Positions 2,825 through 51,584 of a DNA stretch of 64,000 bases are shown here, one piece after another; within the stretch, counting starts at the first letter, position 1; every line of letters starts with the position of its first letter. Both the position numbers and the translations under genes were made by a program. The notes under the pieces are model-generated. The model did not search any database. It saw only the letters and a list, made by a program, of their open reading frames with translations, and was not told where the DNA came from. The stretch lies in assembly GCF_006345805.1 (NCBI RefSeq), contig NC_043006.1:40114001-40178000 (forward strand). Direction: 5' to 3'. The stretch comes from Octopus sinensis (lineage: Eukaryota).

Positions 2825-3360
2825 TACCAATCTTATTTTTCTCCTCCTCCCCTCCCCCTGTATTGTTGCCCGTAATGGAGAGAAGGGGAGGGAAGTCTTC
2901 ACCCGTTCCCTCCGAAAGGGGGGGGGACGCCACGTCAAAACGGTAGAGGAGTAGGGGCCGAAACCGGACGTGGTTCCTCCTGATGATGCCTTGAGCTAAC
3001 TGGATCCTATAAAGGAGCTGTTGCGGTAGCAGACCACGGAACACGGTTGTAATTCCTCCTTGGTAGTAGGGTTTGTTTTGTTTTGTTTTTTTTTCTCAAC
3101 CTTTTCAAGACGCGCTCCGCCATCTTGTTGAGTTGTATTTGGTCCAGTTAAATTTAACGACCACCGAAATTATTTGGTGGGCCGAAAATCACCTCTCTGG
3201 GGGCTACACAACTATATAAACCAGCCACAGGTTCCTGGTGTTTCTATTCACAACTTGGAATAAAATAATTGTTGAAAAAGGACAGCAATCCGGGTGTAAA
3301 TAAATATTTCTAACTGGACTTACTTGGAGCGTCCGTAAACACGTCCGGTATGTTCCGCAG
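2825..3360 (-). mobile_element. Probable 5' end and ORF1 start of a non-LTR retrotransposon
   Basis: GC-richer block. The minus strand reads caagATGGCGGAG (MAERVLKRLRKK...) into low-complexity Pro/Ser coding with stops. Confidence 0.3.
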
Positions 3361-29430: not shown

Positions 29431-30413
29431 TTACATTATTTACATTATTTACATTTGACGGATATTTGTCCTCATCTTGTTTGTTGTTAATACAACGTTT
29501 CGGCTGATATACCCTCCAGCCTTCATCAGATGCCCTGCGGAAATTTCGAACCTGGGTTCTCATTTCTCGGGTATTTTCCCGTTGTTGTTGTTGTTGTTGT
29601 TGTTATTATTATTATTCATAACAATTATGCCCTGATGCAGTACCAGGTAGTGGCTCTCGTGGCTTCTGATCTTAACTGATTGGAAGTGTTATTATGTACA
29701 TTATTTTCTTGGTATAAAAGATCGGCTACAGCATATATTCTGCTCAATACCACAGATTTGCTTGTCAGTTGTTTGACTTTAGCCAGTTGAGCATGTCCCT
29801 TAGTGGCTGACGATATGTGCATCTCTGATCACGAGCTGAAGTAGTGGGAGAGCATCATAGTCATGTGTTGAGAGAGATTTTTGGGGGTTTGAATAATCCA
29901 CCTATGGAAACATGGGTGTTTTGTTCAATATCCTTAAACAAACCTTATTCAGGGACCTTTTGAGCGGGATGGGTTACTCGACCAGAAGAAAATTCTAAGT
30001 GGGCCCCACCTGCAAGGTCATGATATGAGAGCACCATGTCACATACATATGGTTGTGATGGATGTGCCTAGTGTACCCTTATCAGACGGGTAGTCATGAT
30101 GGGTATACTGGGCTTCGTATATTTTACCCCAGTGTCACTTTGATGGCATACACTGCATTCTCAATCAATAATAATAATAATAATATAATAATAATAATAT
30201 AATAATAATAATAATAATAAAATAATAACAACATCGAAAAATACCTTAGGAATCATAAACCAGGTTCGAAATTTCCCCAAGACACCTGAGCAGGGCTGGA
30301 GGGTATATCAGCTGGAACGTTGTCTTAACAACAAACAAGATGAGGGCAAATATCCGTCGAATGTAAATAATGTAAATAATGTACACAATTCCTCATCTCT
30401 CAAATATAGAACT
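29431..30413. mobile_element. Family C hammerhead-bearing inverted-repeat element with nested family D insertion
   Basis: Left arm 29431-29585 is inverted relative to right arm 30228-30385. Minus-strand CTGATGA-AGGCTG...CAGCC-GAAACGTT lies at ~29491-29530, with a degenerate plus-strand copy at ~30283-30325. Confidence 0.8.
29628..30167 (+). mobile_element. Retroposon family D in (TAA)n
   Basis: Homologous to 19181-19697; ends in an (AAT)n tail. Confidence 0.8.
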
Positions 30414-44262: not shown

Positions 44263-44455
44263 CATTATTTACATTATTTACATTTGACGGATATTTGTCC
44301 TCATCTTGGTTTGTTGTTAACACAACTTTTCGGCTGGTATACCCTCCAGCCTTCTTCAGTCGAAACGTTGTGTTAACAACAAACAAGATGAAGACAAATA
44401 TCCGTCAAATGTAAATAAAGTGCATAATTCCTCATCTCTTAAATATAGAACTATA
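44263..44455. mobile_element. Compact family C palindromic element with hammerhead-like motif
   Basis: Arms ~44272-44336 and ~44357-44419 are inverted. Minus strand reads CTGAAGA-AGGCTGG...CCAGCC-GAAAAGTT-GTGT. Confidence 0.78.
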
Positions 44456-47160: not shown

Positions 47161-48167
47161 ATGCCTTGTAATGTGTATGTCTGTGTGCGTATGTTTGTGT
47201 GCCTGTGTTTGTCTCCCCCAACATCTAAGAATAGATTGCAAATACTCCCCTTATATATCAAAACGTTTTGCACAAACATAGTACAAATAAGAGAAACTAA
47301 ATTAAAGCTAAATAACTGTATAGCTGCGTGGTTAAGAACCTCGCTGTGTAACCACGTGGTTTTGAGTTCAATCTCACGGCACGACACTTTGGTACAGTGT
47401 CTTCTACTATAACCGCAGGCAAACTCATAATACCTTATGAGTGAATTTGATGGATGGAAACTGTGTGGAATCCCGACGAATATACATATATCATCACCAT
47501 CATCATCATTTAACGTCGGTTGTCCATGCTGGCATGGGCTGGAGAAATATCTATCTATCTATCTGTCTATATATATATATTATATGTGTGTGTGTGTGTG
47601 GCTAGCTTGGACTCTTATTTACTCAACATGAACCATGGAGCATGAATTCCTCTCCTTTTTCCATTAAGATTCCCGAAGTTCTTGCAGAAAGAACATAGAC
47701 TCTACCCATTTATCTCCTAATTAAGTCATAATATCAAATGATAGATTAATTACTTAATATAACAATATTTGATCTATATTTGAAATGTCAAACAAAAGCA
47801 ATACGGTTCATAATTTTTGGCTGGTAATGTGATTAGCATTGATTGAAAAGTTGTTTACAGGGTTTATTTATATGTAGCGCACACACACAGACAGAGGCAT
47901 ACGCTTATACGCACGCGTATGTTTCGTGATATAAATATAAAAATAGAACTTTAAACATGAGTAAATATATATATATATGTATAGAAATTAAATATAAATT
48001 ACAAAACGGGACAAGAACGCAAAAACACACATATACTAGTATTTAGCTACAAGTTCTGTATTCAGTCTCTTTGAACTTGTTAATGTGCAACTTGCATTTC
48101 ATTGCATAACACATAACAATAACATACCCAATATGTATGTATGTGTGTGTATGTATGTATGTATATC

Positions 48168-48760
48168 TTGGAAAGTTCCGAGGATGGGACTTCCTGGAAA
48201 GTTCCGTGGATTTGAGACTTTCGGAAAAGTATGTATGCATACATAAGGATTTGGGGACTTCCTGGAAAGTTCCGAGGATGGGACTTCCTGGAAAATTCCG
48301 AGGATTTCATGGTAAGTTCCGAGGATTTCAGGTCTTCCTGGAGAGTTCCGAGGATTTGGGGAACATCCTGGAAAGTTCCGAGGATTTTATGAGTTCCCGG
48401 AAAGTTCCGAGGAGTTGAGGCATCCTGGAAAGTTCTGAAGATTTGGGACTTCTTGGAAAATTTTGAATATGGTATTTCCTGGAAATTTTTTGGAAAATTC
48501 CGAAGATTTCCTGGAAATTTCCGAGGTTTGGGGACTTTATACTTCCGAGGTTGGAACTTCTGGGAAATTTCCGAAGATTTCCTGGAAACTTCCGAGAATT
48601 TGGGAATTCCCGGAATGTTCCGAGGAATTCCTGGAAAGTTCCGAGGATTTGGATTTCCTGGAAAGTTCTGAGGATTTGACTTCATGGGATTTTCCGAGGA
48701 TTTCCTGGAAAGTTCCCAGGATTTGGGGACTTCCTATAAAGTTCCGAGAATGGGACTTCC
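48168..48760 (-). repeat. Degenerate minisatellite, core CTTCCTGGAAAGTTCCGAGGATTT (same family as 667-970)
   Basis: Many variant units of ttcctggaaagttccgagga. Confidence 0.9.
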
Positions 48761-49631: not shown

Positions 49632-50003
49632 TCTTAACTCTTTTACTTGTTTGAGTCATTTGACTATGGCCATGCTGGAACACCGCCTTTAGTCGAGGAA
49701 ATTGACCCCAGGACTTATTCTTTGTAAGCCTAGTACTTATTCTATCGGTTGTCAAGCGATGTTGAGGAGGGGGACAAACACAGATACACAAACATATACA
49801 AACACACACACACACATATATATATACATATATACGACGGGCTTCTTTCAGTTTCTGTCTACCAAATCCACAAATCCACTAACAAGGTTTTGGTCGATCC
49901 GAGGCTATAGTACAGGACACTTGCCCAAGGTGCCATGCAGTGGGACTGAACCCGGAACCATGTTGTTGGTAAGCAAGCTACTTACCACACAGCCACTCCT
50001 ACG

Positions 50004-50006
<3 letters not shown>
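49632..50006 (-). mobile_element. SINE family A
   Basis: Head and tail present, with an internal deletion. Confidence 0.9.
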
Positions 50007-50079
<73 letters not shown>

Positions 50080-50292
50080 TATACAAAATAAGAAAATGGA
50101 GAAACACATCTTAATCAATGATCAACTACCAGATAATACCCAATCACATCATTTATTAAACCACTACATATGAACATTAAGGTCAAACATAATAATATAG
50201 AACAAAACAATGTACATGAAAGAGTAATATGATACAATAAGTACAGTATGTGTAAGTGAATATAAATAAATACAAATATAAATATAAACTAC

Positions 50293-50419
50293 ATCTTACA
50301 GCTGTTTCAGCCATGCAGATATGGGTGCCTCATTATGCTCATATTAGCCATGTGTGATAGGCTAATATGTAGTTATAAATGAGACACTTACAAAAATATC
50401 CCAAGGCCTCTTCAGAGAT
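50293..50419 (-). ncRNA. Minimal type I hammerhead ribozyme (minus-strand copy)
   Basis: AUCU-CUGAAGA-GGCC...GGCU-GAAAC-AGCU-GUA-AGAU. Confidence 0.78.
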
Positions 50420-50504
50420 TATGAAGAACAAACTAAATTTAGTTTGTTCTTCATAATCTCTGAAGAGGCCTTGGGATATTTTTGTAAGTGTCTCATTTAT
50501 CATA

Positions 50505-50631
50505 ATCTCTGAAGAGGCCTTAGGATATTTTTGTAAGTGTCTCATTTATAACTACATATTAGCCTATCACACATGGCTAATATGAGCATAATGAGGCACC
50601 CATATCTGCATGGCTGAAACAGCTGTAAGAT
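50505..50631 (+). ncRNA. Minimal type I hammerhead ribozyme with ~100 nt stem II
   Basis: Stem I AUCU/AGAU; core CUGAAGA at 50509 and GAAA at 50616. Stem II: GGCC/GGCU, GAUAU/AUAUC, GUGUCUCAUU/AAUGAGGCAC, CAUAUUAGCC/GGCUAAUAUG. Stem III C-AGCU-G; GUA cleavage triplet at 50625-50627. Confidence 0.8.
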
Positions 50632-51011
50632 GTAGTTTATATTTATATTTGTATTTATTTATATTCACTTACACATACTGTACTTATTGTATCATATTAC
50701 TCTTTCATGTACATTGTTTTGTTCTATATTATTATGTTTGACCTTAATGTTCATATGTAGTGGTTTAATAAATTATGTGATTGGGTATTATCTGGTAGTT
50801 GATCATTGATTAAGATGTGTTTCTCCATTTTCTTATTTTGTATTATTAATTTGTGGTAAAACATTTTACCTTTGTCCATGTAATACAGTAAATAAATTAA
50901 CTGCATCGCAGTTCTTAACATTTATGTATTAACTTTGTTGGGGGCTTCACTAGCAGTATATTGGATATATGTTATCCATGATGGGTTGCACTCACAACCC
51001 CTATCCCAATT

Positions 51012-51079
<68 letters not shown>

Positions 51080-51584
51080 TCATATGCACGACAGGCTTTC
51101 ACACAGTTTCCGTTTACGAAATTTTCTTACAAGGCATTGGTCGTTCCGGAGCTGTCGTAAAAAGTTATTTGTCCAAGGTGCCACGCAGTAGACCTGAAAC
51201 CGTGTGCAGCCGAAGCAAAACCCTGCTAGCCATTCAACCATCCTTGCATAAGATTTCATTATCTAATGTATCCTTCCTTTTTCAAGACGGTAGCGTATAA
51301 TTTGAGGAAAATTGGTTGGTTGTCGAATGTTTTGACTTGATAGGGGATTAGGGGATAGCAGAAGATATAAATGAACTGGATGCAAAACGTGTGAATTGTT
51401 GGAAAATAAAATTAATTTATTCTGCTGAAAAATTAGACAGTATTGAGGCCAATAAAAGAATTTTCCAGGGTGATAGCTTCCCGCTTTTTGATATTTTTTG
51501 GCCGTTTTACTGCTGCGCTTGATGACATTAAACATTAATACTACAAATAGTAAAGTGATGGGTATGTAATAAGATTCAGGCAGC

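What the first reader, a model, noticed from the sequence alone, without database searches (positions are those of the whole stretch)
50083..51013. Spacerless ~760 bp palindrome carrying an intact hammerhead ribozyme on each strand
Seen: two ~355 bp arms meet with no spacer at 50437/50438 (...GAACAAACTAAA|TTTAGTTTGTTC...). Each arm contains AUCU-CUGAAGA-[GGCC...GGCU]-GAAAC-AGCU-GUA-AGAU reading outward, with an unusually long, well-paired ~100 nt stem II. The element sits in (TA)n and has no meaningful ORF. Known: Penelope-like elements carry minimal type I hammerheads in their pLTRs, with a tiny stem III and palindromic loop that can work as a dimer, and they often leave inverted pLTR copies. 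Inference: this is a very young non-autonomous ribozyme retroelement. Transcription from either side would give a long dsRNA rod with a self-cleavage site, a candidate source of hairpin/circular RNA or siRNA and a strong ADAR substrate.
Basis: partly seen in the sequence, partly recalled or inferred. Interest (0 to 1): 0.75.

Follow-up and report, generated by a model that had tools for sequence, protein, structure and literature searches.

The report
Head-to-head stub of a Penelope retrotransposon
This mirror-image DNA is the broken-off 3' end of a common protein-coding jumping gene, inserted twice back to back, likely as two DNA copies made at once from the element's RNA; its long-armed hammerhead motif is predicted to self-cut in the parent element but is predicted to be zipped shut in this palindrome.

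Summary
The locus is a 5'-truncated, head-to-head insertion of the 3' UTR/pLTR of a coding Hydra-clade Penelope-like element. Copies 96.5-96.8% identical to the arm run upstream into RT and GIY-YIG sequence; a sister subfamily holds an intact 947-aa ORF with the Hydra motifs. At least 239 hammerhead copies exist. Of 43 head-to-head pairs, 39 join one pLTR end to one tail end and none join two tail ends; six insertions have a tail-only arm. This fits priming by both target strands at two fixed RT start sites better than fold-back. The 84-107-nt stem II is conserved with compensatory changes (published Hydra: about 11-24 nt). In a read-through RNA the ribozyme would cost more than 115 kcal/mol to fold, so the 'self-cleaving rod' is unlikely. 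Cleavage and expression are untested. Inverted Penelope copies are published, and this scan noted the same kind of element several times on other DNA.

The parts
50006..50080 (.). left (TA)n target microsatellite
   Evidence: TRF array 50006-50083; 152 of 160 family ends are followed by A/T-rich sequence
50081..50437 (-). inverted 5'-truncated pLTR arm ending at fixed site A (pLTR end, mirror of 50843)
   Evidence: the same end recurs in other copies
50293..50419 (-). type I hammerhead motif (stem I AUCU/AGAU, CUGAAGA, 100-nt stem II, GAAAC-AGCU-GUA); predicted cut after 50297
   Evidence: descriptor search
50436..50439 (.). junction: self-complementary AATT shared by both arms; this junction occurs once in the genome
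   Evidence: arms overlap at L001 1437-1440; 20-nt centre: one place
50438..50843 (+). direct 5'-truncated pLTR arm up to site A
50451..50548 (+). 49-nt tandem duplication (2 copies, 1 difference) of the hammerhead's 5' half; absent from the left arm
50505..50631 (+). type I hammerhead motif with 100-nt stem II (50516-50615) and palindromic ACAGCUGU stem III; predicted cut after A50627; alternative 5' half at 50456-50470
50844..51013 (+). 170-nt one-sided tail ending at fixed site B; in full-length copies this stretch leads from the upstream pLTR towards the ORF
   Evidence: L098: tail, about 130 nt, then ATG at 3156
50983..51000 (+). 6-bp hairpin with an A/C-rich loop, 13 nt before end B; candidate RT start signal (inferred)
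   Evidence: fold; the stem is kept with another loop in L098
51014..51079 (.). right (TA)n target microsatellite

Best explanation
The locus is one 5'-truncated, head-to-head insertion of the 3' UTR/pLTR of a protein-coding Hydra-clade Penelope-like retrotransposon, likely made as two cDNAs primed by the two strands of a cut (TA)n target at two fixed start sites on the element's RNA. Steps: (1, shown) the arms are the element's 3' end, and the centre is where both copies stop. (2, shown) family insertions pair one end A (50843) with one end B (51013). (3, inferred from PMC11167929) the RT-endonuclease nicks both strands of (TA)n and starts reverse transcription at A on one strand and at B, 170 nt further 3', on the other. 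(4, inferred) both cDNAs stopped at the same AATT, whose self-complementary ends would anneal and give a spacerless junction. (5, inferred) the 49-nt duplication arose by slippage at or after insertion. (6, predicted) in the parent transcript the hammerhead would cut as a dimer or with protein help; in a read-through transcript of this locus it would be locked in the rod, so this copy is likely an inert scar.
For: Copies 96.5-96.8% identical to the arm (L072, L073, L066) are colinear upstream with RT and GIY-YIG sequence. L098 shows pLTR-ORF(947 aa)-3'UTR-pLTR with 98% repeats. Hydra motifs present: RWR, DKT, YRDD, CxCX5C, CxxC-E, CxH; no CX2-5CxxC or GxKF/Y (defined in PMC8557442 section 11). 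End census: 39 of 43 head-to-head pairs A+B, 0 B+B, 4 A+A; the 4 lie in the diverged subfamily where the tail probe fails, and three read as A+B and one is not a pair of outer ends. In 27 tabulated junctions the A arm reaches further 5' in 14, the B arm in 12, equal in 1; in 6 the B arm holds only tail sequence, which cannot be copied from an A-started cDNA. Here the arms differ at 2 of 344 sites, against 98.3% to the best other copy and a median of 96.8%. PAc cuts and extends both strands and starts at two sites that define the tail.
Against: No intact ORF was seen in the window's own subfamily among the copies fetched; the intact one is in a sister subfamily only about 77% identical in the arm. 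Pfam and PDB gave no RT hit, and GIY-YIG only below cut-off (E 0.0012); the clade call rests on motifs, with no tree. 5 of 27 junctions are near-symmetric (offset 25 nt or less), which may signal a fold-back route in some insertions. Own-arm identity exceeded the best other copy in only 3 of 12 loci and tied or fell below in 9. L003 and L012 share one junction on different chromosomes, so not all loci are independent. Loci were selected for carrying end B.
Confidence: 0.8

Rival explanations
1. Fold-back/self-priming: one cDNA (or an antisense template) snaps back and copies itself, and the endonuclease trims the second arm at site A, leaving the tail on one side.
For: Proposed for Penelope palindromic junctions in PMC3846280 (passages); tail attributed to endonuclease resolution in PMC8557442 (passage). 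5 of 27 junctions near-symmetric, and this locus has offset 0.
Against: In 14 of 27 loci the tail-less arm is the longer one, and in 6 the second arm is tail-only, with little or no overlap with the first. A snap-back needs a loop; this junction has none.
Confidence: 0.2
2. A separate non-autonomous ribozyme element (retrozyme-like) that moves as a palindrome or RNA circle using Penelope enzymes.
For: Most copies are short and non-coding; no intact ORF in this subfamily; one junction is shared by two loci with unrelated flanks; several copies begin near the same 5' point.
Against: The window's junction occurs once; 5' ends vary from about 30 nt to over 4 kb and grade into the ORF; no tandem hammerhead monomers here, which define non-LTR retrozymes.
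Confidence: 0.1
3. The palindrome works as a host-side dsRNA or self-cleaving regulatory RNA (siRNA source, ADAR substrate).
For: A read-through RNA would fold into a -644 kcal/mol rod; family sequence is present in four runs guessed to be RNA.
Against: No host gene evident among the window's 30 ORFs of 150 aa or more (exons not tested); the hammerhead fold is disfavoured by more than 115 kcal/mol in the rod; the locus is young, one of many alike.
Confidence: 0.05
4. Assembly or fold-back read artefact.
For: No public contig spans the centre (contigs cannot decide this).
Against: The flanks are not mirrored; the arms differ by a substitution and a 49-nt duplication; they end at the family's two fixed sites exactly as 38 other pairs do.
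Confidence: 0.02

Closest known systems
Hydra clade of C-terminal EN+ Penelope-like elements, including Hydra-1_Obim and Penelope-13_HM (Craig et al. 2021, PMC8557442; seen: passages, section 11, supplement searches and part 2 of the supplement)
   Same: Single RT + C-terminal GIY-YIG ORF; DKT, RWx, CxCX5C, CxxC and CxH motifs; (TA)n targets; type I hammerhead near the 3' end; 5'-truncated inverted copy at the 5' end. Penelope-13_HM is listed with its hammerhead on both strands.
   Different: Unit about 5.6 kb with a 2.3-2.5 kb 3' UTR and a 947-aa Asn-rich ORF (published: mostly under 3 kb); stem II 84-107 nt (published: about 11-24 nt); tail 170 nt (published: 30-40 bp). The hammerhead sequence differs from Hydra-1_Obim.
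Poseidon PAc of Anolis carolinensis (Frangieh et al. 2024, PMC11167929; seen: parts 1-2 of 4 of the text)
   Same: Two RT start sites that bracket the tail; both target strands cut and extended; A/T-rich target; hammerhead in the pLTR.
   Different: PAc's hammerhead overlaps the ORF start and its tail is 30-40 nt; here hammerhead and tail lie before the ORF start. Nothing was assayed for this family.
Minimal type I hammerheads of metazoan PLEs (Cervera and de la Pena 2014, PMC4209133; seen: parts 1-2 of 4)
   Same: Short stem I (4 bp), tiny palindromic stem III, predicted dimer activity; dual motifs 100-700 bp apart on opposite strands are already reported there.
   Different: Stem II is an 84-107-nt rod rather than 7-8 bp; no bulged base between 9 and 10.1; G-U at 10.1-11.1 in this copy.
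Adineta vaga Penelope elements (Arkhipova et al. 2013, PMC3846280; seen: passages)
   Same: Head-to-head inverted pLTRs with palindromes at the junction, optional one-sided tail, Asn-rich ORF inserts.
   Different: The authors read the junctions as self-priming; the census here favours two primed cDNAs.
Non-LTR retrozymes (preprint 10.64898/2026.07.22.740005, seen: part 1 of 5; PMC7229834, seen: search listing only)
   Same: Non-coding sequence with a type I hammerhead related to pLTRs.
   Different: Retrozymes are head-to-tail tandem monomers; this is a head-to-head truncation product contiguous, in other copies, with a coding element.
LINE-1 twin priming (recalled, not read here)
   Same: Both target strands prime on one RNA and give an inverted insertion.
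   Different: Here the second start site is fixed, and the arms usually overlap as an inverted repeat.

Membership tests
EN+ Penelope-like elements | single ORF with RT and C-terminal GIY-YIG endonuclease | tested here: met
   Met by the family, not this stub: L098 947-aa ORF with YRDD and VYQC..VYIG. Pfam GIY-YIG only weak (E 0.0012, below cut-off); no RT profile hit.
EN+ Penelope-like elements | pLTRs from partial tandems; inverted 5'-truncated copy; one-sided tail | tested here: met
   L098 direct repeat of 2.2 kb at 98%; 39 of 43 pairs A+B.
Hydra clade | DKT in place of DKG; RWK-like motif; no GxKF/Y | tested here: met
   DKT at 138, RIRWR at 35 (RWR, not RWK), no GxKF/Y.
Hydra clade | CxCX5C linker, no CX2-5CxxC, no CCHH, CxxC and CxH around E and N | tested here: met
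   CNCRNKNKC 809, CSLCINE 907, CIH 935, no CX2-5CxxC; no cysteine pair between the GIY and YIG equivalents (read by eye).
Hydra clade | (TA)n insertion preference and hammerhead near the 3' end | tested here: met
Hydra clade | placement in the RT phylogeny | not tested
   Reference proteins were seen in the paper's supplement and compared by eye only; no tree was built.
Hydra clade | generally short (under 3 kb) | tested here: not met
   L098 unit about 5.6 kb; a described tendency, not a diagnostic.
Type I hammerhead ribozyme | conserved core and three stems | tested here: met
   Descriptor met on both strands; core intact in 66 of 94 distinct sequences (the search itself favoured near-intact cores). 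Rfam models give no hit.
Type I hammerhead ribozyme | covariation of stems | tested here: inconclusive
   Stem II: 27 cells with both-sided change against 9.5 +/- 3.0 shuffled, but 6 pairs against 4.6 (110 of 500 shuffles reach it); stems I and III show none within the family. Neighbouring families have other palindromic stem III sequences.
Type I hammerhead ribozyme | self-cleavage at N17 | not testable with these tools
   Needs an assay; the contig ends at 50627 coincide with a tool mask.
Non-LTR retrozymes | tandem head-to-tail monomers each with a hammerhead | tested here: not met
   Head-to-head here; only the 5' half is duplicated.

The most novel reading that the evidence does not exclude
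Octopus Hydra elements make their inverted insertions by obligatory two-site twin priming: each cut target strand starts a cDNA at its own fixed site, 170 nt apart, and the conserved 84-107-nt stem II rod is the docking site through which the RT-endonuclease switches on an otherwise silent hammerhead. The genome would then hold hundreds of in vivo records of a mechanism so far shown only in part in vitro.
Probability: 0.4. Interest if true: 0.6.

Novelty: new variant of a known kind. Interest (0 to 1): 0.35.

Why it matters
How Penelope-like elements make their tandem and inverted structures is named as open in PMC8557442 and PMC11167929. The long tail of this family makes the two ends easy to tell apart, so its insertions test fold-back against twin priming, and the intact sister ORF gives a reagent for an assay. 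Long-stem-II hammerheads escape Rfam, so such motifs are likely undercounted. The single locus is ordinary: one young scar among hundreds.

Tried and rejected
Rfam scan: no hammerhead family; only spurious miRNA hits on the palindrome centre. Apparent tandem arrays on C9539/C11013 were ankyrin-gene repeats carrying fragments of the 3' UTR, not element arrays. Pfam on five ORF pieces and two whole ORFs, and PDB sequence search: no RT hit. A first guess of Neptune/Nematis was dropped after the motif test. Sequencing runs: no RNA holder listed on record. DNA contigs from 4 runs did not span the centre and cannot decide it. In 4 runs guessed to be RNA, contigs end exactly at the predicted cut site 50627, but the tool skips 50628-50678 as a repeat, contigs restart at 50679, and the mirror stretch was skipped in the DNA runs too; this is no evidence of cleavage. 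No target-site duplication can be read inside (TA)n. Unconstrained monomer folding does not give the hammerhead: an alternative hairpin hides the 3' core by 8.3 kcal/mol. Literature searches (listings only unless cited as read): 'Penelope' with 'twin priming' gave 3 papers, none on Penelope mechanism by title; 'long stem II' had 0 occurrences in the 15 of 37 papers listed. The library lacks most subscription papers, and bioRxiv supplements and Repbase/Dfam were not seen; they may already hold this family. Look-up of earlier notes by sequence found nothing.

Full report
Observation. The sequence folds on itself at 50437/50438 with no spacer and a perfect radius of 63 bp. The left arm, 50081-50437, matches the right arm to 50843 with one substitution, but the right arm also holds a 49-nt tandem duplication, 50451-50499 / 50500-50548, and continues 170 nt to 51013. 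Both sides end in (TA)n. A loose type I hammerhead descriptor gave 4 hits in the window: the - strand motif, two + strand readings (one for each duplicated 5' half) and one unrelated weak hit at 29807. Rfam returned no hammerhead model at E up to 1. No meaningful ORF lies in the element.

Family. A search of the own genome with 50500-51013 found 2,666 candidates, of which 40 were scored, at 93-97% identity. A 28-nt pattern for the hammerhead's 3' half has 239 exact matches against 0 for the control; among the 100 listed I counted 8 head-to-head pairs within 5 kb, and 33 carry U at position 11.1 like this copy. The 20-nt centre of this locus occurs once. Other copies run on past the centre: it is a truncation point. 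Walking upstream leads through about 2.5 kb of 3' UTR into RT and GIY-YIG sequence on the same strand in L072, L073 and L066, whose arms are 96.5-96.8% identical to the window's (substitutions only); their frames are broken. A protein search scored 136 of 9,113 candidates. L098, from a sister subfamily about 77% identical in the arm, shows pLTR, tail, a 947-aa ORF, 3' UTR, pLTR and tail. I saw no intact ORF in the window's own subfamily among the copies fetched.

Clade. The L098 protein has RIRWR, DKT, YRDD, CxCX5C, CxxC before E and CxH after N, and lacks CX2-5CxxC and GxKF/Y. These are the Hydra-clade marks of PMC8557442 (section 11), and the published Hydra proteins show the same motif order by eye. 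Pfam and PDB add almost nothing, and no tree was built. The host is likely an octopus: this rests on earlier scan notes and recalled SINE sequences, not on a test.

The two ends. Family ends fall at two sites, A (window 50843) and B (51013). An automatic census of all 163 loci held found 162 ends (84 A, 76 B, 2 internal) and 43 head-to-head pairs: 39 A+B, 4 A+A, 0 B+B. The four A+A calls are in the diverged subfamily, where my tail probe fails; three of them (L103, L111, L113) read as A+B and L097 is not a pair of outer ends. The 39 include one likely haplotig duplicate, one local tandem and two loci that share a junction. Loci were chosen for having end B, but those were not and follow the same rule. 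Of 34 loci examined, 27 with both inner ends placed were tabulated (7 dropped): the A arm reaches further 5' in 14, the B arm in 12, equal in 1 (this locus); 6 have a B arm made only of tail; 5 have offsets of 25 nt or less. Arm-to-arm identity here is 99.4% against 98.3% for the best other copy; across 12 loci the own arm was always above the median of other copies but beat the best other copy in only 3.

Mechanism. PAc cuts and extends both target strands and starts at two RNA sites that define the tail (PMC11167929). Applied here, one strand primes at A and the other at B; each cDNA stops at random and the two are joined head to head. That explains the A+B rule, either arm being longer, and the tail-only arms, which a fold-back of an A-started cDNA cannot make. 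In this locus both cDNAs ended at a self-complementary AATT, which would let them anneal without a spacer. These steps are inferred. Self-priming, proposed in PMC3846280, may still account for the near-symmetric minority. A small hairpin with an A/C-rich loop sits just before B, like PAc's start-site loop; its role is a guess.

The hammerhead. The core is intact in 66 of 94 distinct sequences, found by a search that favoured near-intact cores. In an alignment of 26 of 43 diverse sequences, stem II is a rod of 84-107 nt in every subfamily: 94.9% of cells pair, 27 cells change on both sides against 9.5 shuffled, and slid controls pair 28-43%; the number of covarying pairs (6) is not above shuffles, and relatedness inflates the rest. 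Six of 26 have C at U4. Neighbouring Hydra families have 53-57-nt stems II and other palindromes in stem III (ACACGUGU, ACAUAUGU; one copy breaks the palindrome). Published Hydra motifs have about 11-24 nt between the cores. As a monomer the active fold is 8-12 kcal/mol above the minimum, while two palindromes pair at -13.1 kcal/mol, as expected for dimer-type PLE hammerheads, which cleave weakly in vitro (PMC4209133). In a transcript across the whole palindrome the active fold costs +116 to +176 kcal/mol, so read-through RNA would not self-cleave. Expression and cleavage remain untested; the contig ends at 50627 are a masking effect.

Novelty. Inverted 5'-truncated copies, palindromic junctions, tails and opposite-strand hammerhead pairs are all in print. 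New in degree are the very long stem II, the 170-nt tail and the long 3' UTR; my searches did not show them in print, within a limited library. Earlier notes of this scan describe the same kind of stub, twin priming and long-armed hammerheads on other DNA of this and other genomes; none matched this sequence. I had reached the Hydra and two-end reading before seeing them; the docking-site idea for stem II is taken from them and untested.

Verdict. A real, young, but common scar of a Hydra-type Penelope element; new variant of a known kind; interest 0.35.

Noticed in passing
L003 (C13:25633902) and L012 (C4:79643011): Two insertions on different chromosomes with unrelated flanks share exactly the same head-to-head junction, found at only these 2 places: a re-mobilised palindrome or a recurrent junction.
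   Followed up: partly
L080, L086, L120, L129, L130, L134 (alignment A1): A sub-lineage has CCGAAGA (U4 to C) in the hammerhead core, 6 of 26 aligned sequences.
   Followed up: no
L116:3165-7700: A second Hydra family with an 899-aa open frame, inverted and direct pLTRs and a 55-nt stem II sits directly beside a copy of the window's family in the same (TA)n.
   Followed up: partly
L004, L005, L011/L013, L007, L141: Several copies begin at nearly the same 5' point about 530 nt upstream of the hammerhead; possibly a transcription start or RT stop site.
   Followed up: no
L098 ORF residues 500-800: Asparagine-rich stretch (21% N) between RT thumb and endonuclease, like the N-rich inserts of rotifer Penelope elements.
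   Followed up: no
window 49839-50005 and 51087-51220: Related SINE-like copies flank the (TA)n on both sides; contigs join between them.
   Followed up: no
window 48159-48760 and 667-970: Degenerate 21-29-nt minisatellite (TTCCTGGAAAGTTCCGAGGA-like) at two places in opposite orientation.
   Followed up: no
L061-L065 (C9539, C11013), L076: Tandem ankyrin-repeat gene units, each carrying the same fragment of the element's 3' UTR.
   Followed up: no
L071:6693-9077 (-): A 795-aa single-frame TPR-like host ORF with a possible C-terminal TIR-like part (recalled resemblance, not tested) near a family copy.
   Followed up: no
window 44275-44418: An imperfect hairpin that hits a miRNA model below its cut-off.
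   Followed up: no
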